Part shown: piece after piece, positions 6,608-64,000 of the stretch
Numbering within the stretch: the stretch's first letter is position 1
Layout: every line of letters begins with the position of its first letter
Source of the DNA: Octopus vulgaris
Taxonomy: Eukaryota
NCBI GenBank assembly: GCA_951406725.2
Contig: OX597817.1
Location: forward strand, 29,760,001-29,824,000
Direction: 5' to 3'
Length of the DNA stretch: 64,000 bases
Position numbers and translations under genes: made by a program
Notes under the pieces: model-generated
What the model was told of the DNA's origin: nothing
The model's database searches: none
Seen by the model: only the letters and a program-made list of their open reading frames with translations

Positions 6608-7692
6608 TTTGATACTTTGATACTTTGATAGGTTTCGGCCATTATTGGCCCAGGCCATGTCTAACTTAATAGCACCACCTGGTGAAGTCTTTCAAGTCAG
6701 AATTTGGGCACTATGGCCCACTCAAGTAGAGAGTTATTGTTTACAGAGACATATCCGGGTGTAGGGGGTTTATCCGGGATTTCTTGAAGGAATCTGTCCA
6801 AAGACTTCTTGAACCCTATAGGGTCAGTTTCTGTTTTAATGTGTTTTGGTGTAATGTTAAAGAGAGCGGGGCCAATTGAGGTGAAATAATTGTGCCGTAT
6901 TGTTGTTATGAGATGAGAGTGCGATTTTTGTTTTGGGCGGATGGCACGGGGCCCAAGCCTTGGATGTACCTTAAAGGTGATGCCAACATCATTTGGGCAA
7001 TGCTGATGGAATATTTTCCACATCATGCAGATGATGTAGCGCTCACGACGACGTTGGAGAGAATAGAGTTTTAGCTTTTCTAGTCGACCCCAATAGTCGA
7101 GGCCTGTCATGCCATCTATCTTTTTTGTGATTGCCCTTTGAGGTGCTTCGACTTTTATGATACCTTGTATTGTGTGGGGAGACCACAGTGGACAACAGTA
7201 TTCAAGGTGGGGTCGGGCAAAAGTGGAGAAGAGAAGGATAATGGTGTGGATATCTCTCGACTGGAAAGTTCTGAGAATCCAGGAACACATTCTGCGGGCC
7301 ATGTCAACTTTGGTGTTTATATGAGTGGCCCAGCTTACGTTGTTGTCCACAATTACTCCCAAGTCTCTGATGTTGTTGGACGCCGCGAGAGTTTCACCTG
7401 AAGGAAGGGAGTATGGGAGTTTCAGGGCATCCTCTTTTCCAAAGTGGATTAGCTCAAATTTATCCTCGTTCAGCAGCATATTGTTTTTTTCTGCCCATTG
7501 GATAACAGCCAGTAGATCTGACTGAAGGCATGTCCGGTCACTCGCCTCATTTATGACCTTCTGTAGCTTGGAGTCATCTGCAAAGATTTTTATGTTGCTG
7601 TGCTTGATGATGTCATTAATGTCATTAATGTAAATGATGAAAAGAAGTGGGCCCAGCACAGTGCCTTGCGGAACGCCACTAATATATATATG

Positions 7693-7760
<68 letters not shown>

Positions 7761-7806
7761 TTATATATACATACATTACACACATACATTCATATGTACA
7801 TATATA

Positions 7807-7844
<38 letters not shown>

Positions 7845-7945
7845 TGTATATACATACATTACACACATACATTCATATGTACATATATATATATATACAT
7901 ACATTGCACACATACATTACATACATTCATATGTGCATATATATA

Positions 7946-15705: not shown

Positions 15706-16592
15706 TGGATCTTTTCTTTTTGAAAGCCAGATTTTTCAGATTTTTCTAGTTAACTAAATAATTTGAATCTTCATATACTGGTAGAATGTGTCAAAAGAAA
15801 ACAATAATTTCAACTAGTTTTTTTGACAAAAATGTATTTCATAAGTTTAAACGTAGTTTAAATCTGCGAAATTTAACCAATCGTATTGTCTGTTTTCATT
15901 TGAAATTATTAGCTGCATAGTGTTAATGTGACGTAGATAGCTATTTTGTGAGTGGGTAAGCAGTAAGCAAACAGCTGTGGTAGATGTGGTTATCATGGCA
16001 GTGGTGGTAGTGGTGACAGTGGATGTGTATGATGGCAGCAATTATAGTGTTGGTGTTTTTGTAGAGGTGGTGGTGGTGGCGGCAGTGGATGATGATGATA
16101 GTAGTAGTAGCATTGATTATGTTAGGATGTCTCATGGATGGTAGTGTTGGTGTGTGTGTGTGTGTATGTAATCAATGCTACTACTACTATCATCATCATT
16201 ATCATCATCATCCACTGCCACCACCACCACCTCTACAAAAACACCAACACTATAATTGCTGCCATCATACACATCCACTGTCACCACTACCACCACTGCC
16301 ATGATAACCACATCTACCACAGCTGTTTGCTTACTGCTTATCCACTCACAAAATAGCTATCTACGTCACATTAACACTATGCAGCTAATAATTTCAAATG
16401 AAAACAGACAATACGATTGGTTAAAATTCGCAGATTTAAACTACGTTTAAACTTATAAAATACATTTTTGTCAAAAAAACTAGTTGAAATTATTGTTTTT
16501 CTTTTGACACATTCTACCAGTATACGAAGTTTCAAATTATTTAGTTAACTAGAAAAATCTGAAAAATCTGGCTTTCAAAAAAAAAAGATCCA
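15706..16592. repeat. Long inverted repeat: arms 15706-16119 and 16169-16592, 49-bp spacer
   Basis: Arms are reverse complements apart from a few substitutions and microsatellite length; reciprocal near-identical ORFs appear in the six-frame track. Confidence 0.95.
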
Positions 16593-37133: not shown

Positions 37134-37755
37134 TATATAGGATTAATTGTATATTAATAAGATTAATTGTATATTATATAAAATGAAGAAAAATTTGCTA
37201 AAACTGCAACACTTTTGTTTGAAGTTAAACAATATCAATGTTTTCTATTATTCGTCAAATACTTAATGCAATTACAAAAATGACTGAGATTGTTCCAGCA
37301 GCTTCATTATCAGTTCAGACACCAGGTTCATTACCTGAACATAAAACAGATGTGACTATATCATCAATTGGTCAGTCTTAATATGCAAAGTAGCCAACCA
37401 ATTTGTTCTGTTCACATAGATCATATAAAGTGAATAATAATACCCTTGCAATAGTAAATAAAGTTGTAAAAAATCTGATGTTACCTATCAGCACAAAAAT
37501 TCTAAGTAGCTACAGACCAAGATACATTGGCTTTCAAATTTGAAAACTGATCTAAGTCTACAATTAAAAATGCTAAACTGTACCATTAGAAATATCATAT
37601 GAAATATAATACTATCCAAAAAGAGGGAATCTAGTTGTAGATGCTTTAAAGGAGAATCTCTGCATTTGCTAAAAATAATTAATATTGAACTACATATATA
37701 TATATGTATGGTATGCTCCTGCTTTCAGTGTTTTCAAATCCAAACCAGGGAGTTC

Positions 37756-37808
37756 TGAGCTGATGATAGAAGTGTCGAGTTTGACTAATCTTGAAACGTA
37801 CGTTCTCA
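37756..37808 (+). ncRNA. Type I hammerhead ribozyme motif, copy 1
   Basis: TGAG-CTGATGA-[TAGA..GTC GAGTTT GAC..TCTT]-GAAA-CGTACG-TT-CTCA: canonical core, palindromic ACGTACGT stem III, predicted cleavage after 37804. Confidence 0.8.
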
Positions 37809-38314
37809 AATAACCTTTGCATTTGATTTTTTAATGTTTCTACCCTCATACTTTCGTGAGTTGAATTGAACAAGCACTATTTGAGAGAGATTTTCTTTAA
37901 GTATTGGAAATAGTTTTTAAAAAGTTTTTTTGGCTGCTATTTCTAATGAGTTCAGTATGCGACAAAGTAATTTATTTTACTAAGCCCTTTTATATAATGT
38001 AATAATTTGAATTCGCCTTAAATGGTCCCTTTGCATACTGAACACTTGGTGAAATTGATTAATTAATTAATTTTACCCTCAATTGTTGAAATTATAATTC
38101 ATCTTTCTCTATTTAATGCCTCGGATTTTACCGAAAAAAAAGCATGTTCTTTGTTGATTTTAACCCACGCTGGTGGAAGGGGAGAGCAGAAATCCTTCGC
38201 TTGCATATTTGAATTCGTTGGCACTGTTAGTTGCGAGTAGATCTTCGGAGACGATGGGAAACCGAATAGGTATGCTCCTGCTTTCAGTGTTTTCAAATCC
38301 AAACCAGGGAGTTC

Positions 38315-38367
38315 TGAGCTGATGATAGAAGTGTCGAGTTTGACTAATCTTGAAACGTACGTTCTCA
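38315..38367 (+). ncRNA. Type I hammerhead ribozyme motif, copy 2
   Basis: Identical to copy 1; predicted cleavage after 38363. Confidence 0.8.
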
Positions 38368-38568
38368 AATAACCTTTGCATTTGATTTTTTAATGTTTCT
38401 ACCCTCATACTTTCGTGAGTTGAATTGAACAAGCACTATTTGAGAGAGATTTTCTTTAAGTATTGGAAATAGTTTTTAAAAAAGATTTTTTTGGCTGCTA
38501 TTTCTAATGAGTTCAGTATGCGGCAAAGTAATTTATTTTACTAAGCCCTTTTATATAATATATATATA

Positions 38569-38930
38569 TATATAACGGGAAGCTTTATGAAAATAAACAA
38601 AAGACGAAGGCAGGTGGAAAACAAACGAACAATTGTATTAGTATGGCGCTCAGGAAATATAAATAAAACAAGTCTTTAACGTTTCGAGCCTACACTCTTC
38701 AACAGAAAGATACACAGAGAGAAAAAAAACACAGAAAGAAGGAAGAAAAAAATGCGTGCTGTAGCTAACGAATCAACATGGCGATCTGATTTCGGCCAGA
38801 GGTCAAAGATCAAACATGAGACGCGAGAGCGAAATAAGGGGAGATAATAGGGTTGAGGGACCAGCTAATAGTGCGTAGGAGGGGTCTGGATGTGTGTATG
38901 TATAGGGTTGGTGTATGTATTAGTATGTAT

Positions 38931-38969
<39 letters not shown>

Positions 38970-39450
38970 TATTAGTGCGTAGGATTGGTCTGGACGTGCG
39001 TATGTATGGGGTTGGTGTATGTATTAGTATGTATTAGTATGTATTAGTACGTATTAATATGTATAAGTGTGTGTGTGTGTGTATGAGAGAGTATAAGTGC
39101 GTATGCGGGGTCTGGACGTGTGTATGTATAGGGTTGGTGTATGTATTAGTATGTACTAGTATGTATTAGTACGTATTAGTATGTATTAGTTGGTGTATGT
39201 ATTAGTATGGCACATCATATGTGATGTGATGTGTAAAGTCATGTGGTGTAGTGAGGAGAAGAGGGGGAGGAGAGAAGGGGAGGGGAAGAAGAGGGGGGAG
39301 AGGATGGGGGAGAAGGAGGGGGAGGAGGGGGGATGAAGGAGGAGAGGGGGAGAGAGAAGGGGAGAGAGGGAGTGAGGGAGCAGAAGGAAGGGGAAGAGGG
39401 AGGGAGAAAGAGGGAAGAAGGGGAGTAGGGGTGAAAGGATGAAGGACTGA
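38569..39450 (-). repeat. 3' pseudo-LTR of the PLE
   Basis: Near-identical to 43021-43915; contains (GTATGTATTA)n and a purine-rich tract. Confidence 0.9.
38673..38710 (-). ncRNA. Minimal hammerhead-like motif in the 3' pseudo-LTR (CTGTTGA core variant)
   Basis: TCTTT-CTGTTGA-A-GAGT GTAG GCTC-GAAA-CG-TT-AAAGA. Confidence 0.6.
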
Positions 39451-42402
39451 AGAAGTAGGGGTCGGGGGAAAGGATAGGTGAGGAGGGGGGAGAGGGGGTT
39501 AGATGAGGAGGGGGGAAGTTGAGACCAAATGGCGTATAAGAGCGAAGAGAGAAGATTAATTCCTGTTCACGGCGCAAACGGGAATCCGGATGGCCTCTGT
39601 GTAAGGACAAACCGAACACAGATAGGTGTTGCAAGGAGTGACCGGTGGAGCGGAAATGGCGTGAGACCGGTGTGTCGTTCGCAAGGTGGATGTCACGAAG
39701 GTGTTCCGCGAACCGGTCAGCCAAGCGGCGTCCCGTTTGTCCGATGTACAAGGAATTGCAGAGAGAGCAAGAGATGCAATAGATAATATTGCTGGAGGTG
39801 CAGGTGAAGGAGTGGATGATGGGATAGGGTCGATGGTGGGTGCTAGTGAGGCGGGTGGTGTTGGAGAGGTAAGGGCAAGTGCGGCAACGTGGGCGGGAGC
39901 AGGGGAACGAGCCGGGTTGGGAGGTAGGGTCAGGGAAGGAGCTATGGACCAAAAGGTCTCGAAGGTTGTGGGCTCGTTTGAAAGAGGGGAGGGGTCGGTT
40001 AGGGAAGAGGTGTGAAGTGGACGGGTCGGACTGGAGATGACGGAAAGCTCGAAGAATGGTGCGTTGGAGACGTAGGGTCGTGGGGTGGTAAGTGAGGGGA
40101 AAAGGGAGGCGGGAGACTACAGGGCGGGTTCGGGGAGAGAGAGCAGATACACGTTCCACGGACCGTGCTCTGGCAAGGGCGGTGTGGATAGTGGTGAGGG
40201 GGTATCCACGTAGGGTGAAGTGGTGAGCCATACGTTGAGACTGAGTCTCAAAGTCATGGTCGTCACTACAGAGCCTACGTAGACGGAGGAATTGGAAATA
40301 GGGGATGGAAAGCTTGGTGTGTTCTGGGTGGGAGGAAGAGAAGTTGAGGTATGAGTGTGAGTCTGTGTGTTTGTAGTGAATGGAGGTGGTAAGAGTGGAG
40401 TGAAGAATGCTAACCGAAATGTCGAGGAAGGAGACAGAGGTGTTGGAGATAGTGGAAGTGAAGTGGAGGGCTGGATGGAAAGATTGGACGAAAGAGAGGA
40501 AGGAATCTAGATGTTCGCGGGAGAGTGAGGTGGCACCGATAATGTCGTCAATGTAACGACCATATAGTTCAGGAGTGGGACCAGTGAAATTAGAGAATAT
40601 TTGGGCCTCAACATAGCCAACGAACAGGTTCGCGTAGTTGGGGCCCATTCGCGTTCCCATGGCCACTCCCGAGACCTGATGGTAGAACTCGCCCGCGAAC
40701 GAGAAGCAGTTCAGAGTAAGGACAAGTTCGGCCAGACGAATGAGTGTGGAGGTGTCAGGTACAGGGCTAGAGCGGAGGTCAAGAAAGTGTCGAAGGGCCT
40801 GCAGTCCTTCGTGGTGAGGGATTACAGTATAGAGGCTTTGGATGTCCATAGTAAAAAGGATTTTGGAGGAGCCGGGAGGAAAGGAGAAAGAGTTGAAAAG
40901 CCGGAGAGCATGGTTGGTATCGTGGATGTGGGAGGGAAGAGATGCCACTAGGGGGGCAAGGACACGGTCGAGGTATTTAGAGATGAGCTCCGTGGGGCAG
41001 TTACAGGCGGAGACGATGGGGCGGCCAGGGTTGTTGGGTTTGTGGATTTTGGGGAGGAAGTAAATGGTGGGGGTACGTGGGGTTCGCACAATTAGAATGG
41101 ATGCGGTGCGGGGGAGACGGGAGGACGAGATGAGGTCTTGGACAGTAGAGGATACCGTCTGTTGGTAGCTACGTGTGGGGTTAGAGGGCAGAGGGGAATA
41201 GAAGGAGGTGTCATTGAGTTGGCGGAAAGCCTCGGCCCTATAGAGGTCCGCGCGCCACACCACTACAGCTCCACCCTTGTCAGCCGGTTTGATGATAATG
41301 TCAGCGCGTCGTTGGAGGGAACGAAGAGCCAAGAGCTCAGCCGGGGAGATGTTGAGGCGGCGTTGGCGCCTGGAGAAGTTGAACCGCTCCAATGCACGCT
41401 GACAAGCGCCCGCGAAAAGATCCACTGCTAGGATCTGGCCAGGGGCAGGCGTCCACAGGGATGGTCGGCGGCCCAGGCCAGTGAAGCAGTCCCTCTTCGT
41501 TGGGTGTGGGTGGCGAGTCGTGGTAATGCGCACCCAACCGGACACGGCGCACAAAGCTGTGGACATCAACTCGCGTCTGGAATTCCTTACAGGATGGAGT
41601 GAGGGGGATGAAACGCAGACCCCTACCAAGGACGGAGCGTTCAGCCGCAGAGAGGGGACGATCGGGGGGAATGATAACAACAGACGGAAGTGGAGAAGGG
41701 GTGGGTGGAATAGAAGTAGGAGGGGTGGTAGGTCTCGTGGAGGTCTGAGGGGGAGGGATTGGGGAGGTGTGTAGGGGTGGTTGGGCGGGGCAGTAGGGTT
41801 AGGTGTAGGTGGATGGAGCCTAACGGGAGGGGAGAAGGGGTTGTAGGGAGGGGCAGTGGGGTTAGGTGTGGGTGGATGGAGCCTATCGGGAGGGGAGAAG
41901 GGTGGTGGAGGAGTTGGGGTAGTGGCGTCGGGTAGGGTGGAATGGAAGAGTGATTGGAGTTTACGAAGTTTGGTATCAGAAAGAAATTGATGGAAGAGTT
42001 GATTCAAATGGATAATGAAGCGTAGCGTGTTTGGAGCATAGAGAGGCGGCAGAGAGGAGAAGAAGGTGGAGAAAGCAGGAGGAAGAAGGCGGTTGATGGC
42101 ATGTAGTTTGGAGAGATTGGAGCGAATGGTGGCCCGCATAAGGCGGTAAGATGTGGTGCGGAGTATGGGTAAGATGGAAGAATCCGAGTGGAGGGCAGGG
42201 TGGAAGTGGAGGCAGAAACCTTTAGGGATGAGTCGGTGATGTAGGCAGCGGCTTAGGAAAGAGACATGGCTAGAGAAGCGGGTTTTTTAAAAAGAAGTAG
42301 AGAGAGATTAACGGACGGCTGAAGGCAATATACAGGAAGCGAACGGAGATGATCCTTCAAACGGTGATGGAGGGTGAGGAGGTAGGACCTAGGATCCGGC
42401 AT
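39239..42402 (-). pseudogene. PLE polyprotein: reverse transcriptase + Zn-finger linker + GIY-YIG endonuclease, with apparent frameshifts in the N-terminal third
   Basis: KPADKGGAVVVW, FLPKIHKPNNPGRPIVS, TMDIQSLYT, GVAMGTRMGPNYANLFV, RYIDD, FLDI, CSRPRCRTC, NIIYCISCSLCNSLYIGQTGRRLADRFAEH, PFGLN; probable true start MPDPRS at ~42402. Confidence 0.9.
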
Positions 42403-43020
42403 GATGGGATAGCGGAAAAAAAACGTTCGAAAAAACAAAAAAAAAACAAAAAACAAAAATTATCGTATGAAAAAAATAGAAAAAAAGGATAGCGAAAAAA
42501 GGGGAAAAAACAAACGTTCAAAAAAACAAAAAAATAATAATCGTATGAAAAAACAGATAAGTAAGCGATAGGGGCAGAAAAGACGGGGCAAACGGAAAAG
42601 GGAAAGAAAGAAGGGAAGCAGAGAGAGGGGGAGGCAAAAAAAGGGGGGTGCAGGCAGAGGAAACGGAGTATGGACATCCAGAGAGGGAAGAAAGACGGAA
42701 AGGAGAACAAATATGCAGGAAAATGTGGAAAGCATGAAATGAATGTAAAAAAAGTGGTAATATAAGAGAAAATAAAAATACAACAAACGGGACAGCTTAT
42801 GCGAACAAGTTCAAGGTTGAAAGTTCAAGGTGAGAAATGTGTAGACGTCGTGGTATATTTTTTAAGGATTTCACATCAATGCAAAGTCACTTTGATCCGC
42901 GAAAGAGAGGTGCAGCCAATGGTAAGTATCCAAGAGGTAAAGAAAATCCAAGGTAGAGGTAAGTGTTGATAGTGGTATTGGTAGAATATAGGATGAAAGT
43001 GAGACCACGTGAGCGCATAA

Positions 43021-43915
43021 TATATAACGGGAAGCTTTATGAAAATAAACAAAAGACGAAGGCAGGTGGAAAACAAACGAACAATTGTATTAGTATGGCG
43101 CTCAGGAAATATAAATAAAACAAGTCTTTAACGTTTCGAGCCTACGCTCTTCAACAGAAAGATACACAGAGAGAAAAAAAACACAGAAAGAAGGAGAGAA
43201 AAAAATGCGTGCAGTAGCTAACGAATCAACATGGCGATCTGATTTCGGCCAGAGGTCAAAGATCAAACATGAGACGCGAGAGCGAAATAAGGGGAGATAA
43301 TAGGGTTGATAAAGGGTTGAGGGACCAGCTAATAGTGCGTAGGAGGGGTTTGGATGTGTGTATGTATAGGGTTGGTGTATGTATTAGTATGTATAAGGGT
43401 GTGTGTGTGTGTGTGAGAGAGTATTAGTGCGTAGGATTGGTCTGGACGTGCGTATGTATGGGGTTGGTGTATGTATTAGTATGTATTAGTATGTATTAGT
43501 ACGTATTAGTATGTATAAGTGTGTGTGTGTGTGTATGAGAGAGTATAAGTGCGTATGCGGGGTCTGGACGTGTGTATGTATAGGGTTGGTGTATGTATTA
43601 GTATGTACTAGTATGTATTAGTACGTATTAGTATGTATTAGTTGGTGTATGTATTAGTATGGCACATCATATGTGATGTGATGTGTAAAGTCATGTGGTG
43701 TAGTGAGGAGAACAGGGGGAGAGGGAGAACAGGGGAGGGGGAGAAGAGGGGGAGGAGAGGATGGGGGAGAAGGAAGGGGAGGAGGGGGGATGAAGGAGGA
43801 AAGAGGGAGAGGGGGAGAGAGAAGGGGAGAGAGGGAGTGAAGGAGCAGAGGGAAGGGGAAGAGGGACGGAGAAAGAGGGAAGAAGGGGAGTAGGGGTGAA
43901 AGGATGAAGGACTGA
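43021..43915 (-). repeat. 5' pseudo-LTR of the PLE
   Basis: Direct repeat of 38569-39450. Confidence 0.9.
43125..43162 (-). ncRNA. Minimal hammerhead-like motif in the 5' pseudo-LTR
   Basis: TCTTT-CTGTTGA-A-GAGC GTAG GCTC-GAAA-CG-TT-AAAGA. Confidence 0.6.
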
Positions 43916-44029: not shown

Positions 44030-44092
44030 AGATAAAACTCTGAGTTTCGGATGCCGAGGTGGAAATCCACAACACCATCTCTTCAGTTATCT
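44030..44092 (-). ncRNA. Type I hammerhead motif in a separate TA-embedded fragment (~43927-44142)
   Basis: AGATAA-CTGAAGA-GATG..GTGGA TT TCCAC..CATC-C-GAAA-CTC A GAG-TT-TTATCT: 6-bp stem I and canonical core. Confidence 0.75.
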
Positions 44093-57350: not shown

Positions 57351-58290
57351 TGGGGTCATCCCATAAATAATGCATTTTTTTTATACTTCTTTTATTTTTC
57401 AAAATTAAGATAAACAAAGATCTTCTTTAATCAAAAATATACTCTCCTTCATTTTCTACAATGCTCGTCCATCTATCTGGTAGACTTTCAAGGCTTCTCT
57501 TCAAAAATTCACTTCTCTGTGACGAAAAATACTTCTCCAGTACTGTTCTGACCTCGTCTACAGAATTCATATGTTTTCCGTCCAAATGATTTTGAAGACT
57601 GCGGAATAAATGATAATTAGATAGGACAATGTCCAGCGAATATGGTGGATGGGATATTGTTTTCCATTCCAACTGCTCCAGCCTTTGGAATGTTATCCTA
57701 GCTGTATGTGGCCGAGCATTATCCTGATGGAAGAACACCATTCCTTTTGAAACCAAAGATAGTCGTTTTTCTTCTAGCACTGACTTAAGCCACTCAAGCT
57801 GCTTGCAGTAGATTTCCTTTGCTATCGTTTGGTTTGGGTTTAAAAGTTTAAAGTGGACTAAACCTTTCATATCCCAGCAAAGAGATAACAACACCTTACG
57901 TGGGTGAAGACCATCTTTAGCCTGAGTAACTAGTGTTTCACCCTTCCCTACCCACTGTCTTCAGCGGCTGACATTTTTATACGGAACCCATTTCTTGTTA
58001 CCAGTCACCATTCGGTCCAAAAAAGGTTCATTCTTGAGACGTGACAGCAAAAGAAGAGCACACATTCACTTCCTGTGGGCAATTAGCTGCGAAAATTTGT
58101 GTGGAACCCTTTGACCCAGTTTTCTGACTTTTCCGATGGCACACAGGGGTTGATGAATGATTGAATGATCAAATCCAAGCTTCTCTGCTTGTTCCTCAAA
58201 AGTCCAGATGATATATTGTTCCACCAGAGTTTGCAGGACGTCTTCGTGGAGCTCTACAGATCTTCCAGGATGAGACTCGTCTTCAGAAGA
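57351..58290 (-). mobile_element. Degenerate mariner (DD34D-type) transposase with 3' TIR
   Basis: RVPHKF (WVPHEL-like), VTGNKKWV, FHQDNARPHTA, HPPYSLDIVLSNYHLFRSLQNHL; stops and frameshifts; 5' end missing. Confidence 0.9.
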
Positions 58291-60800
58291 ACAAGGAGAA
58301 ATGGAGGAGAAATTTGGTGCAGTCCAGTCCCATTCATGTACCTGTAGAAAAAAACAGAAGCCGAATGCCACTCAAGGAGCAGATTGTTGGTTGGTACCAG
58401 TTTCTTGGGAAATCAATTCAAGGAAGAAAGGAGAGAGCGGTGGCATTATCAAGAGAAGTGACTCTTCAGTGGAGAGAAAAGCTGAATTTTTCCAATCATT
58501 TCTGAGCAAACAATATGGTCCAAGCCCAAAATCAGCTTTATTTGTATGACAAAGTGCCAAGAAAGGAAAATTTGTGCCATTAGAAGAATTGTTCGATATC
58601 ACCAATGTCCATGATGAATGACTCAATGCTGATGACAAAAAGCTGTACTCCATCCAATTTCAAAGTAAGGGCAAAGGGGACTATTCGAGGGGAAAAGCTG
58701 CAAGCAAGCAGACTATCCATCCTTCTGATGCTAAAGCCTTTATCAGACCCAACAGCCCTGGATACTGACAGTGACTAAGAAGAAGAAGAAGAAGAAGAGG
58801 AGGAGGAGGAGGAGTACAATTATGGTGAAGATGATAGAGTTGATCAAAATGATAGTAATAGTGATGGCACTTATTCTTCCACAAGAAGACACAAAAAAAT
58901 AAAATCTGCAATTGGTACGAGACTTGTAACTGGAACAAACGTCTCTACCAACTAAGTTGCGAAAATCTGCTAGCAGTTGTCAGAGGAGGGCATTGATATC
59001 CCAGCTCCTAGTCAGCGAGGCATTTACAAAGCGCTCTTCAAAAAAGCTGGTGGAATGAAAAAACATTTGATTGATACGCTACGCAATCAGAAACACAGCC
59101 TACATTTCGATGGTTAACATATTGACGGAAATGAATATCAAGAAGTGGTTGTCATCAAGAATGAAACAAGTGAAATCAAGCTGGCTGCTCTGAAGGTGTG
59201 TGATGGCAAGGCTGAGACTATTGCAGAAGAGACCATTACTGAAAAACATCTCCTTTGCTATCGTTTGGTTTGGGTTTAAAAGTTTAAAGTGGACTAAACC
59301 TTTCATATCCCAGCAAAGAGATAACAACACCTTACGCGGGTGAAGACCATCTTTAGCCTGAGTAACCAGTGTTTCACCCTTCCCTACCCACTGTCTTCAG
59401 CGGTTGACATTTTTATACGGAACCCATTTCTTGTTACCAGTCACTAATCGGTCCAAGAAGGGTTCATTCGTGAGACGTGACAGCAAAAGAAGAGCACACA
59501 TTCACTTCCTGTGTGCAATTAGCTGCGAAAGTTTGTGTGGAACCCATTGACCCAATTTTCTGACTTTTCCGATGGCACACAGGGGTTGATGAATGATTGA
59601 ATGACCAAATCAGAAACACAGCCTACATTTCGATGGTTAACATATTGACGGAAATGAATATCAAGAAGTGTTTGTCATCAAGAATGAAAGAAGTGAAATC
59701 AAGCTGGCTGCTCTGAAGGTGTGTGATGGCAAGGCTGAGACCATTGCAGATGATACCGTTGCTGAAAAACATCTTGGACGAATTTCACTTGTTGGGCGCA
59801 ATTTCAATGATTATTGCTGATACGACGAGTGTGAATACGGGACGAAAGTGTGGTGGTAGTGGTTAGACTTCAGGGAATGCTTTTGAGCAAAGGCTATGAC
59901 AAGCCGCAAATTGTGAGCTGCTAAGACCATGCCACAGACAGAATCCTGCACGTCATTATGGATTAGGAGCTGGCAGGCGCAAGCAATTCCTCAAACATCG
60001 AATATTTTTTGTCAAAGAACTCATGTCAAGTTATAAAGAACTCTAATACTCCTTCCAGAATGGAACTCATGTCTTTGAAGATCAAGCTGGCTGGAGTGAT
60101 GATATGAAGTTTCTGTTCCACTTAACTCGTACCTTCAGGTTATTCCATGAAGACGGAGACCTACCTTTCATCAAGTTTCAGAAAATTCCGAACATTATTA
60201 ATGCCAGATGAATTTCATGAAAAATCTTAACCTTTCTTGCATTTTTGCTCACGCCACATGTGAGAGAAAGACTGTAGATGGTCTGCCAGTAAAACTCATA
60301 TGACTGGGCGGACCACTGGTTCCGTAACCAAATGTATAGAGCTGAAGATATCGTAGAGCAAAGCTATCGTAAACCTTACTACTCTACAAGACTGGTTCGA
60401 AATGCTTGACAAATCACTGGAAACAGGTGTCATCAAAAATAAACATCAGAAGGAGCAATCAATGCTGCGAATGAGCAATTAGGATCAAGCAAGAACTACA
60501 CGCCATATGCAAGAACAAAGCCAACCTGCCATTGCGTTTCATTCTCTCTAATGACCTGCCGCAACTTGACTAATTTGACTTTATATGACTTGCCTTCTTT
60601 TTACTGTTTGAATTAAACATTTTGGATCTTTTCCCCCATTTTTTGTTTATTATTCAACCAGAGTTTTTAGAAATCCGCCCAAATGCAACCGAGTATAAAA
60701 ATTTAAAAGTTAGTCACGGGTGAGCTTTTTGATCAAATACAAAAAAAAACATTGATTTTCATTGTTTTCAATCAAAAGCTCATCAGAATATGATACAGGA
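58290..60800 (+). mobile_element. Degenerate DDE transposase, hAT-like (possibly hATm-type), interrupted
   Basis: SLHFDG, IIADTTSVNTGRK, SC*DH..DRIL, GWSDDMKFL, NAR*, RSNQCCE*AIR in collinear order; boundaries approximate and family assignment tentative. Confidence 0.6.
59248..59611 (-). repeat. 364-bp copy of mariner segment 57812-58175
   Basis: Direct repeat with a few substitutions. Confidence 0.9.
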
Positions 60801-61453: not shown

Positions 61454-63036
61454 TGTATGTATGTATGTATGTATGTATATATACATATACACATAGGTAT
61501 AATCGTATATGTACGTAGAGAAACATGTGAAATAAGGACCAGTGTTTCGAGAGACTTTTTCTCAGTTCTCTGAGGAGGTCCCTACACAAACGTTTTATAG
61601 CTTTTTATTAGATTTCTGTTTTCCTAATGAATAATCTTTGTGTCTACGTTCGCAATAATCTTTTGATCTTGAATTTGCTCATGAATCTAGATTTGAGTAT
61701 TTTGACTATTTCTTCTTGTGTTTCAATTTGGCCCTACTATATTCTATCATTGATCTTTTCTTCCTTTATTACGCTCAATTCCCTCAGGGCTGCATTTTTG
61801 GTAATGTTGTTTCCTACAAAATTGATGCTGCTTGCTTTTGTCTTTCAACAAACTTTACTGATTTTTGTGATGTTAACTACCTCATTTTTATAATCATTGA
61901 TTCTGCTGGTATCCATCTCTCTCTCTCTCTCTTTCTTTCGATCAACATCCCTACTCGTTATCCAGATCATAACAACCATATTCCTTACCTCCCTGATTAT
62001 TTCTGCCAGTTTGATCCTAGCATTTGCTCTGTCTCTTCGCGTGTTTCACCTCTCAACTATAACCTCATTTCATTTTATCTGGCTATATCTTGCAACTTTT
62101 CCCTAAGCAGTGACCTTCTATCTCATCGTAACTCATTACTTTCAACAAGGAGATTGGGACTTCTTTTGTAATGTTCTGTGGGATAATATCTCTCTTTCTG
62201 CTCATTCCTGTACATACAACTGGGGTAGTATCATGTATTCATGCTACGTTTTGAACTTTCATTCTTTATTTCAGATATTTAGTTAAGTAATATACCTTTC
62301 CCTATTTTTCTCTTACGTCGCCTCTGCGAGTGTTTAAAGAAGCCATTTTTCTAACGTTATCGTCAACACTTCTTTAGAAAATAAACGCCTTGTTCTCATT
62401 GGCTAGGAAAAGTAGAATGGAATTTCTTACAAATGTTATATCTCAATATACAGAATAGATATAATCTTATATTACTTCTCAGAATTCAGGCTCACAGGAC
62501 TTTTGGAAATTTTCTATTTGTGCATTTGAATAACACTAAATCTACCATTCCTTCGATCTTCAGCCATTATGACGTACTATCTTATAAATCGGAATAGACT
62601 GCTCAGACATTCTAGTCTCGATTCATTTGATGTTTTTCCATACTTTCCTTCTTGCTATGACTAGCAGTTATGACATAATTATTTGACTAGTATATAATTT
62701 CTAAATCTGCTTAAATTAATAGTGAGTTCTGATACTGATACGTCTTGTAGTCCTCATAAAATCACTGCCACTGCTTTGCAACAATGCTCTTCTGAACCGT
62801 TTTCTAATTTGTCTAACCACTTCAACGGATACTTAGCAGTGACATACTTCTAACCAGCTAATAATTGTTCTCTGTAATCCATATTTTCCAAAGTTCTAGC
62901 GAACGTTCTCATCCACTTAACTACTGCCCGATCTACCTTCTTATAGTTAGCAATATTTTTGAGCCATTGGTCAACCAATTTTTCATCTTGCACCTTGAAT
63001 TGCTTGGTCTGTTTTCTGACAAACAGCAGTCCGTTA

Positions 63037-63383
63037 CACTTTTTCGAAATCAGTGACTTTTTGTCACTGGAAAAAGGATATATATATTTGCATTGGGACC
63101 CCTTCGCATTGAAGACCGGTGATTGTCGTGCGCTGACGACGGGTAAATACTCAGAAACCCGGGTCCGTGTGTATCACGTCAGGTCGACGGTGGGAAGGAT
63201 GGCTTTCCTTTGCAAATATTGACAGGGCACAGAAAGTGTGTCAATAGCCAGCTGGAGAAGATATTCTCCTGGGGCTACAAGCTACAGTAGCATCCACCCT
63301 TAATGGTTAGTCACATTTAAATGCCAAATATACTTCACATTTTCGTGCAGCTACTGTTTATACCTCGTTCAGAGATTTATTAT
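63037..63383 (+). mobile_element. 347-bp hammerhead-bearing insertion with a 12-bp TSD
   Basis: AGCAGTCCGTTA at 63025-63036 and 63384-63395; removing the insert rejoins the LINE (SDKQ..STA). Confidence 0.75.
63119..63177 (+). ncRNA. Type I hammerhead ribozyme motif
   Basis: GTGAT..GTGCG-CTGACGA-C GGGTA AA TACTC A-GAAA-CCCGGG-TC-CGTGT..ATCAC; canonical core, palindromic stem III, GUC site after 63165. Confidence 0.8.
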
Positions 63384-64000
63384 AGCAGTCCGTTAGCTTC
63401 TCACTCTACTGCTTATTTTCTGTGAACGATAAATGTGGTTCTACCGGGCTGTGGGTAATTTCGATGAAACAAGTATTGTAACCCATGTCATATCGAAATC
63501 ATTTGACAAAGTTTGATATTCTGGCCTCTCCACAAACTCACAAGCTTGAGATTTATAATAATTTCCGGCAGGATCTATAGGATTCAAGATTCTTTTCTGG
63601 GCGAACGTTGTATAAAAACTGTTTTAAGTGGTCTTCATTATTCTACTTATTCTACTTATTCTACTTCATCTGCTGTTCCTCGAGGTCCTGTTCATCGTCC
63701 AACTTGTTTTTAGTTTTTATTTATAATCTTCTGAATGATATAATTTCTACACTCTCTATTTTTGCTGATGATATTTCTTTGTGTTCTTGCTTGAATGAAA
63801 AATCTAAGTTTTTGATTGGATAGGAATGGCCAGACCTTATGAACCTAATCGGCGTTCGGTGACCGAATGGGTGTTTTGTGTCTGGTTTGCAAAAATCGAA
63901 CTTCTTTCCATCATTCGTTACAGGAACTCTAATGATATTTCTGTTTCTATGCCTTTCTAGCCTTCATCTTTGAGGTGTAACTTTTTCTATATGTCTTACA

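What the first reader, a model, noticed from the sequence alone, without database searches (positions are those of the whole stretch)
63025..63395. Precisely delimited 347-bp hammerhead element with a perfect 12-bp TSD
Seen: the insert splits an old LINE RT, is flanked by AGCAGTCCGTTA, holds a canonical GUC hammerhead and a CAGTGAC/GTCACTG hairpin, ends in TTTATTAT, and has no tRNA head or credible ORF. Inference: a ribozyme-containing SINE-like monomer inserted by target-primed reverse transcription. Unlike the other units it is not tandem and has a clean TSD, so it may use a different helper. An internal TA tract (63078-63087) means it could be composite.
Basis: partly seen in the sequence, partly recalled or inferred. 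Interest (0 to 1): 0.7.

Follow-up and report, generated by a model that had tools for sequence, protein, structure and literature searches.

The report
Lone copy of a hammerhead retrozyme
This is one almost unit-length copy of a very abundant non-coding repeat that carries a hammerhead RNA motif predicted to cut itself; a related organism lacks the copy and has the flanking 12 bases only once, and the repeat was likely pasted in by a Penelope-type enzyme, which makes it an ordinary new member of a known class, the animal retrozymes.

Summary
Observation confirmed. The 12-bp repeat is a true target-site duplication: organism E has the empty site, with one copy of it. The 347-bp insert holds a complete type I hammerhead, with the predicted cut after 63165.

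The SINE-like, fixed-ends, other-helper reading mostly fails. The insert is about one unit of a high-copy ~357-nt repeat whose tail joins its own head in 7 of 7 contig runs. TTTATTAT lies inside the unit and is not a LINE tail. The TA tract is not a composite joint.

Family copies share a clustered 3' end, run into AT-rich DNA, thin out toward the 5' end and form inverted joints: a Penelope-type footprint. The copy reads through the ribozyme cut site, so its template was a circle or an uncut tandem RNA. Cleavage, circles and the helper element are not shown.

Verdict: a new family of animal non-LTR retrozymes, seen here as a solitary, probably dead-end copy. This scan has noted the same kind many times on other DNA of this genome.

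The parts
63025..63036 (+). Left copy of the 12-bp target-site duplication; its last 3 bases also match the head of the repeat unit (microhomology)
   Evidence: empty site in X10 record 9 and joints 63383->63034
63384..63395 (+). Right copy of the 12-bp target-site duplication
63037..63383 (+). Solitary copy of a ~357-nt non-coding repeat unit, lacking only the ~7-nt linker (and perhaps 3 head bases); 43.8% GC; fold z -4.7; 19-22 majority differences from the family in three contig runs
63051..63069 (+). 7-bp hairpin CAGTGAC/GTCACTG; the loop differs among copies
   Evidence: loose-end consensus
63078..63087 (+). TA tract; the family mostly has G at 63084; bridged by other copies, so not a composite joint
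   Evidence: tables 3 and 8; tables 3 and 8
63119..63177 (+). Type I hammerhead: stem I 63119-22/63174-77 and 63127-32/63166-71 around an internal loop; core 63133-39; stem II 63141-44/63149-52 on a C.A base; GAAA 63154-57; stem III of 2 bp plus tetraloop within the palindrome 63157-64; predicted cut after 63165
   Evidence: no majority change at core positions in 4 runs (table 3)
63376..63383 (+). 3' end TTTATTAT: internal to the unit; coincides with the family's clustered 3' end, the inferred start of reverse transcription
   Evidence: loose ends behind 63383/63384 and tail-to-head joints
62698..63024 (+). Left flank: decayed LINE-type RT remnant (weak tool support; motif reading recalled)
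   Evidence: negative
63396..63820 (+). Right flank: continuation of the decayed RT remnant, with an IFADD motif
   Evidence: RVT_1 E=0.12; tblastn E=2.7e-4

Best explanation
The insert is one nearly complete unit of a high-copy ~357-nt tandem repeat family with a type I hammerhead motif, inserted here with a true target-site duplication, likely by the reverse transcriptase and endonuclease of a Penelope-like element (PLE) acting in trans; it fits the animal non-LTR retrozymes. Shown: the unit joins tail to head in other copies; the empty site exists in organism E; family 3' ends cluster at 63383 plus about 5 bases and run into AT-rich DNA. Inferred: tandem copies are transcribed; the helper nicks both target strands 9-12 bp apart and starts reverse transcription at the fixed site near 63383, about 220 nt past the ribozyme cut; it then copies toward the 5' end. 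Deduced from this copy: synthesis passed the cut site at 63165, so the template was continuous there. I favour a ribozyme-cut, re-ligated RNA circle (about 55 to 45 over an uncut tandem transcript). Synthesis ended about 7-10 nt short of one full unit and joined the target through 3 matching bases. With a single hammerhead this copy could not release a unit-length RNA, so it is probably a dead end. It dates from after the split from organism E (flanks 5.1% apart) and before the split from A and C (1.8-2.0%).
For: Tail-to-head joints 63383->63033-63041 with a ~7-nt linker in 7 of 7 contig runs (tables 5 and 5c). X16 record 9 (360 nt) is a whole permuted unit, and 30 RNA reads of X24 run from the tail into the head. 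Loose letters before 63039 in X10 (21 contigs, agreement 0.69) are the unit's own tail, not an ORF. Summed depth 9,900-1,440,000 inside against 34-59 on the flanks in X4 and X10 (not a copy number). Behind 63383, 60-100 contigs per run in 5 runs agree for about 5 letters and then scatter into AT-rich sequence (agreement 0.50-0.54); 40 and 28 contigs behind 63384 give (TA)n-like consensus. Opposite-strand joints are 7 of 15 and 9 of 15 rows shown (57 and 20 rows in all); in 3 of these 16 rows place plus side length lands at 63377-63384, as an inverted arm from the same 3' end would (my arithmetic). Core positions unchanged in the majority of 4 runs, and the majority letter at 63151 makes stem II fully Watson-Crick. 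GC 43.8%, no ORF, fold z -4.7. Literature: retrozymes are 150-450-bp tandem units with type I HHR, GC <50% and TSD >4 bp (PMC7229834); dispersed monomers are common and PLE-related (bioRxiv 10.64898/2026.07.22.740005); PLE RT starts at fixed internal sites and cuts AT-rich DNA (PMC11167929); inverted truncated arms are typical of PLEs (PMC8557442).
Against: No helper identified: the unit shows no similarity to the PLE in this window (scores within shuffle range), and no genome was available to look for another. This copy has no inverted arm and sits in a non-microsatellite target. No sign of cleavage in RNA: 472 of 12.9 million reads in X24, both orientations, 86% running on into unlike sequence, and no pile-up of ends (table 6), although an ordinary RNA-seq library would be a poor test. 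An alternative pairing (63140-44 with 63157-61) dominates predicted folding and blocks the hammerhead: P 0.89-1.00, falling to 0.08-0.25 only with a common variant at 63159. The two-copy hammerhead fold (-27.9 to -33.9 kcal/mol) is also above the cofold minimum (-41.3 to -47.3). Inversions also arise in LINE twin priming (recalled). All family evidence comes from capped tables of short contigs, not whole copies with both flanks.
Confidence: 0.75

Rival explanations
1. Same family and same PLE helper, but the template is an uncut linear tandem transcript and the ribozyme is a passenger: a non-autonomous, internally deleted PLE derivative with no circle stage. This differs from the best explanation only in the template step.
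For: In vitro a Poseidon PLE uses unprocessed RNA, hammerhead mutants do not affect insertion, and no RNA-seq reads end at the cut (PMC11167929). Predicted folding blocks the hammerhead. No read pile-up at 63165. Non-autonomous PLEs with head-to-tail insertions are described (PMC8557442). Some copies carry other sequence 5' of 63120/63131, which could be a longer parent.
Against: The hammerhead has the canonical type I build (6-bp stem I with loop, 4-bp stem II, short palindromic stem III; PMC4209133 part 1), and its core is kept in the majority of 4 runs. Comparable 350-390-nt units in mussel accumulate as circles (PMC7229834 section 14).
Confidence: 0.35
2. A SINE-like element with fixed ends, mobilised by a LINE (RTE or CR1 type) that recognises a TTTATTAT tail.
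For: Clean 12-bp duplication, single orientation, clustered 3' end; 5' truncation and microhomology also fit LINE-type priming. Hammerhead-bearing SINE-like SMalpha elements exist (PMC8490949 passages).
Against: TTTATTAT continues into the linker and the unit's head. No tRNA head or pol III boxes. Tandem units and frequent inverted joints. PLEs also make 8-10-bp duplications.
Confidence: 0.1
3. A plain 5'-truncated end (solo pseudo-LTR) of an autonomous PLE.
For: PLE terminal repeats carry hammerheads, and most insertions are 5'-truncated. The 3' half is deeper than the 5' half in the contig runs.
Against: The sequence upstream of the head is the unit's own tail (X10 loose ends, X16 record 9). 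No ORF in the unit. The hammerhead is of the canonical type, not the minimal PLE type.
Confidence: 0.05
4. Chance repeat or DNA-level artefact (no real insertion, or an assembly chimera).
For: Some 12-mer repeat at this spacing occurs in 34 of 2000 shuffles.
Against: Empty site in organism E; contigs cross both junctions in organisms A, B and C (records 1/8, 16/23, 24/31).
Confidence: 0.01

Closest known systems
Animal non-LTR retrozymes (Cervera & de la Pena 2020, PMC7229834: passages and sections 14, 17 read; review PMC7761336: passages)
   Same: ~350-nt non-coding tandem unit (mussel 350-390, axolotl 330/350), type I hammerhead with 2-bp stem III and tetraloop, a mismatch at the base of stem II (as in HHR_Amex2), GC <50%, self-paired fold, TSD longer than 4 bp, PLEs in the same genome
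   Different: A new sequence family; this locus is a solo unit; cleavage and circles not shown here; 'octopus' and 'cephalopod' do not occur in that paper's main text
Retrozyme monomers as PLE derivatives (Li, Clavereau & Pollet 2026, bioRxiv 10.64898/2026.07.22.740005: parts 1-3 of 5 read; supplements not seen)
   Same: Dispersed solo monomers of tandem hammerhead families, regarded as non-transposing offspring; PLE machinery proposed
   Different: That study is mostly vertebrates and shows pLTR homology in Xenopus; here no homologous pLTR was found (only the local PLE could be tested), but an empty site and 3'-end clustering are shown
Penelope-like elements and their non-autonomous derivatives (PMC11167929 parts 1-2 of 4; PMC8557442, PMC3846280, PMC9977147 passages)
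   Same: Fixed internal start of reverse transcription away from the ribozyme cut, AT-rich targets, 5' truncation, inverted arms, head-to-tail copies, 8-10-bp TSDs, microhomology at 5' junctions
   Different: No ORF; canonical rather than minimal hammerhead; this copy has no inverted arm
Schistosoma SMalpha / W36.2 hammerhead SINE-like repeats (PMC8490949 passages)
   Same: ~335-bp repeat with a hammerhead, both tandem and dispersed
   Different: Called SINE-like there; no tRNA gene or pol III box detected here; no sequence comparison made

Membership tests
Animal non-LTR retrozyme | Type I hammerhead with intact core | tested here: met
   Core and three stems (1 of 20000 shuffles); core unchanged in the majority of 4 runs. 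Rfam models did not detect it.
Animal non-LTR retrozyme | Tandem unit of 150-450 bp, one ribozyme per unit | tested here: met
   Tail-to-head joints in 7 of 7 contig runs; whole permuted unit in X16 record 9. Met by the family, not by this copy.
Animal non-LTR retrozyme | Non-coding, GC <50%, highly self-paired | tested here: met
   Longest ATG frame 21 aa, GC 43.8%; fold z -4.73, 0 of 100 shuffles as stable
Animal non-LTR retrozyme | TSD longer than 4 bp when present | tested here: met
   12 bp (or 9 bp plus 3 matching bases); empty site in organism E
Animal non-LTR retrozyme | No LTR, primer-binding site or polypurine tract | tested here: inconclusive
   No terminal repeat beyond the TSD (self-comparison); PBS and PPT were not searched for as such
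Animal non-LTR retrozyme | Self-cleavage of the RNA | not testable with these tools
   Needs an assay; RNA-seq shows no pile-up at 63165; predicted folding disfavours the active fold in a monomer
Animal non-LTR retrozyme | Accumulation as unit-length circular RNA | not testable with these tools
   30 RNA reads cross tail to head, which fits circles and tandem transcripts alike
Animal non-LTR retrozyme | Co-occurring PLE, often with a homologous pLTR | tested here: inconclusive
   A 1015-aa RT ORF with ~900-bp terminal repeats lies in the window (PLE call from recalled motifs), but it shares no sequence with the unit; other PLEs could not be searched
Autonomous PLE or its truncated end | RT-GIY-YIG ORF in or directly upstream of the repeat | tested here: not met
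   No ORF; upstream sequence in other copies is the unit's own tail
Autonomous PLE or its truncated end | Insertion footprint: fixed 3' start, AT-rich targets, inverted truncated arms | tested here: met
   Family-level loose ends and opposite-strand joints; from capped tables only
Autonomous PLE or its truncated end | Optional 30-40-bp tail between two start sites | tested here: inconclusive
   A few ends at 63337-38 run into AT-rich repeats (X13 4 contigs, X16 1 contig, X24 32 reads), but an alignment break at 63339-46 confounds this
tRNA/5S/7SL-headed SINE | Pol III RNA-derived head with A and B boxes | tested here: not met
   ARAGORN none, regex none, Rfam none
tRNA/5S/7SL-headed SINE | 3' end shared with a partner LINE, plus simple-repeat tail | tested here: inconclusive
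   The terminal TTTATTAT is internal to the unit; no LINE library was available to compare the last 100 nt

The most novel reading that the evidence does not exclude
The near-exact unit length is mechanistic: a Penelope-type reverse transcriptase primed on a ~357-nt RNA circle runs round once and stalls on meeting its own starting duplex. This would yield a class of SINE-like, unit-minus-7-to-10-nt monomers with clean duplications: a genomic fingerprint of circular templates that could be counted in any assembly and would test the rolling-circle model of animal retrozymes directly.
Probability: 0.15. Interest if true: 0.6.

Novelty: new member of a known kind. Interest (0 to 1): 0.3.

Why it matters
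Modest. It adds a retrozyme family from an octopus-like genome. The taxon is my recall from the repeat content and the scan's notes, and was not tested. My searches (titles and listings) found no paper on cephalopod retrozymes, and an octopus repeat annotation does not mention ribozymes. The locus is useful as a clean case: a verified empty site, a datable presence/absence marker, and a copy that must have come from a template continuous across the ribozyme cut. If unit-length monomers proved over-represented, the open question of whether animal retrozymes are copied from circles would become countable from genomes alone.

Tried and rejected
Searches that found nothing:
- No whole genome is held for this window, so whole copies with both flanks could not be collected.
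- No second copy in the window.
- Rfam: no hammerhead hit.
- Exact motif scans: 0 hits in metagenome, genome and viral contigs for the ribozyme motif; 0 in metagenomes and 1 in genomes for a 3' motif. That hit is a 21-base match in a Nostoc contig, taken as chance and not examined.
- The scan's own sequence look-up found no look-alikes, and nothing near this place.
- No RNA holder on record; X13 and X16 are only guessed to be RNA.
- tblastx of the flanks against the rest of the window gave one hit at E=0.44; PDB search of the left fragment gave none.

Readings rejected or left open:
- The local PLE and the 559-bp hammerhead element were rejected as helper or relative by local alignment against shuffles.
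- Composite origin at the TA tract: rejected.
- An excess of 5' ends at the unit head: 4 of 16 opposite-strand rows have one side at 63034-39. Not accepted as evidence, because arms ending in the linker or the last ~20 nt of the previous unit would be booked there too (about 2-3 expected by my estimate).
- A second 3' end near 63338: left open because of an alignment break nearby.
- A step in depth at the cut site 63166, expected from linear cut monomers: not visible.
- Protein homology searches for a helper were not run, because they return no DNA context.

Full report
1. Observation. The 12-mer AGCAGTCCGTTA stands at 63025-63036 and 63384-63395, cannot be extended on either side, and encloses 347 bp. 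On its own such a repeat is modest evidence: some 12-mer repeat at this spacing arose in 34 of 2000 shuffles. Public contigs settle the matter. In run X10 (organism E) one 1900-nt contig covers 62760-63024 and 63384-63565 as directly adjacent record positions, with the same depth of 33.8 on both sides. This is the empty site with one copy of the 12-mer. Runs X1, X2 and X4 (organisms A, B, C) have contigs across both filled junctions. X9 (organism D) has different depths left and right, which suggests the filled state. Flank divergence from the window is 5.1% for E and 1.8-2.0% for A and C, which brackets the insertion in time.

The flank reads as a decayed LINE-type RT on the + strand, but tool support is weak. 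RVT_1 scored E=0.12 in 1 of 6 fragments. tblastn to the window's own RT gave E=2.7e-4. The nearest named Atlas cluster for the left fragment was RVT_1, at 0.91 and on 18% of members. PDB gave nothing. My reading of collinear RT motifs across the junction is recalled.

2. The ribozyme. The insert holds CTGACGA (63133-39), GAAA (63154-57) and GTC (63163-65). Stem I has 6 plus 4 pairs around an internal loop, stem II has 4 pairs on a C.A base, and stem III has 2 pairs and a tetraloop inside the palindrome ACCCGGGT. One of 20000 shuffles of the insert passed my descriptor. In the whole window the descriptor hit 3 places: this one and the two cores of an unrelated element at 37760 and 38319. The build matches the 'canonical' metazoan type I hammerhead that works best as a dimer (PMC4209133 part 1 of 4). 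Rfam did not detect it. In four laid runs the majority letters differ from the window near the ribozyme only at the variable core position 63137, at 63151 (making stem II fully Watson-Crick), at 63159 (loop of stem III) and at 63130 in stem I; the catalytic positions and the C.A base are kept (table 3, complete). Against activity: an alternative pairing that blocks the hammerhead has predicted probability 0.89-1.00, and 0.08-0.25 only with the 63159 variant. The two-copy hammerhead fold also lies above the cofold minimum. Cleavage is not shown.

3. The family. Summed contig depth inside the insert is 9,900-1,440,000 against 34-59 on the flanks in X4 and X10. The tool warns this is no copy number, but a family on the scale of thousands is a fair inference. 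The tail (63383) joins the head (63033-63041) through a ~7-nt linker in 7 of 7 contig runs (tables 5 and 5c). X16 record 9 is a 360-nt contig that covers 63229-63383, the linker and 63034-63234, that is, one whole permuted unit. In X10 the loose letters before 63039 (21 contigs, agreement 0.69) are the unit's own tail. So the element is a closed ~357-nt unit and not the end of a longer coding element, and the window's copy is one unit short of about 7-10 nt. TTTATTAT continues into the linker and is not a tail. Bases 63034-36 fit both the duplication and the unit head. The TA tract is bridged in X4, X10, X16 and X9, and most depth has G at 63084, so it is not a composite joint. The copy differs from the majority at 19-22 places in X13, X9 and X16 (31 in X24).

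4. Insertion footprint. Behind 63383, 79, 96, 100, 60 and 91 contigs (X1, X2, X4, X10, X9) agree for about five letters (TGCTT) and then scatter into AT-rich sequence (agreement 0.50-0.54). A further 40 and 28 contigs behind 63384 give a (TA)n-like consensus. The 3' end is thus clustered, about 220 nt past the ribozyme cut. Depth falls toward the 5' end, about tenfold in contigs and less in raw reads, as with 5' truncation; local divergence also affects this. Opposite-strand joints at scattered places make up 7 of 15 and 9 of 15 rows shown (57 and 20 rows in all). For 3 of these 16 rows, place plus side length reaches 63377-63384, as expected of an inverted arm that starts at the same 3' end. 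Fixed internal starts, AT-rich targets, inverted truncated arms, 8-10-bp duplications and microhomology joins are all described for PLEs (PMC11167929 parts 1-2 of 4; PMC8557442 passages; PMC3846280 passages; PMC9977147 passages). A PLE-like element lies in the window (39239-42286, RVT_1 E=1.4e-7, ~900-bp terminal repeats), but it shares no sequence with the unit, so the helper is unidentified.

5. RNA. In the one raw RNA run (X24, organism E, 6% of the run read), 472 of 12.9 million reads lay on the stretch, in both orientations. Of these, 86% ran on into unlike sequence, 30 ran from tail into head, and there was no pile-up of ends anywhere, including 63165. This fits passenger transcription of many copies. 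It neither shows nor excludes cleavage or circles.

6. Mechanism. Shown: tandem unit, clustered 3' end, true duplication. Deduced: a linear monomer cut by the ribozyme would run from 63166 round to 63165, and reverse transcription starting at 63383 would run off at 63166. This copy continues to 63037, so its template was continuous across the cut: a re-ligated circle or an uncut tandem RNA. No step in depth is visible at 63166. Inferred: PLE protein in trans, nicks 9-12 bp apart, 5' joining by 3-base microhomology. I put the circle at about 55% (canonical ribozyme, self-paired unit, mussel precedent in PMC7229834 section 14) and the uncut transcript at about 45% (PLE biochemistry; folding). 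A solo unit has one ribozyme and could not release a unit-length RNA, so this copy is probably a dead end.

7. Comparison and novelty. It works like, and by every sequence-level feature that gave a clear result belongs to, the animal non-LTR retrozymes (PMC7229834 passages and sections 14, 17; PMC7761336 passages). Cleavage and circular RNA, two defining features, are untested. Solo monomers and PLE dependence are already reported (bioRxiv 10.64898/2026.07.22.740005 parts 1-3 of 5). I found no paper on cephalopod retrozymes in searches (listings only). PMC13282606 has no 'ribozyme' in its text or its one held supplement; its repeat library was not seen. The scan's earlier notes describe several 360-590-nt hammerhead families with Penelope-type footprints in this genome. 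These are unchecked AI notes; whether any is this family I cannot tell, since the sequence look-up was blank. Verdict: new member of a known kind, interest 0.3. The boldest reading left open, that unit-length monomers mark one pass round an RNA circle, rests on this one copy (probability 0.15).

Noticed in passing
window 37710-38562 (+): A second, unrelated hammerhead-like element with 559-bp period (about 1.5 units; cores at 37760 and 38319; palindromic stem III), abutting the PLE terminal repeat through (TA)n. No similarity to the 347-bp unit.
   Followed up: partly
window 38568-43915 (-): Apparently intact PLE-like element: 1015-aa stop-free RT frame 39239-42286, terminal repeats 38568-39450 and 43020-43915 (94.6% identical), a Cys-rich linker and GIY-YIG-like end (recalled motifs), and a minimal hammerhead-like motif with UUGAAGA near 38700.
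   Followed up: partly
window 44040-44086 (-): Isolated CTGAAGA...CGAAAC motif resembling a minimal PLE hammerhead, just outside the PLE.
   Followed up: no
window 63058-63062: The hairpin loop is TTTTT here but reads GAAAA in other copies (loose ends before 63066): a possible micro-inversion of the hairpin.
   Followed up: no
family copies aligned at 63120 and 63131 (table 7): Some copies carry different, mutually related sequence 5' of the hammerhead (X13 and X16 before 63120; X9 and X24 before 63131): sister subfamilies or a longer parent element, a lead to the helper.
   Followed up: no
family copies ending at 63337-63338 (table 7): A few ends about 45 nt short of the main 3' end run into AT-rich simple repeats: a possible second start site (PLE-type tail), confounded by an alignment break.
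   Followed up: partly
window 15793-16099 and 16198-16504: 307-nt, 96% complementary inverted repeat with a 98-nt spacer.
   Followed up: no
window 57427-57960 (-); 57812-58175 and 59248-59611: Mariner-type transposase fragment (PF01359, E=8.3e-18) with a local 364-bp duplication; its CTGAAGA...GAAAC matches failed my hammerhead descriptor.
   Followed up: partly
window 6697-7872 (-): LINE RT fragment (RVT_1, E=1.8e-9) interrupted by an (AT)n tract.
   Followed up: no
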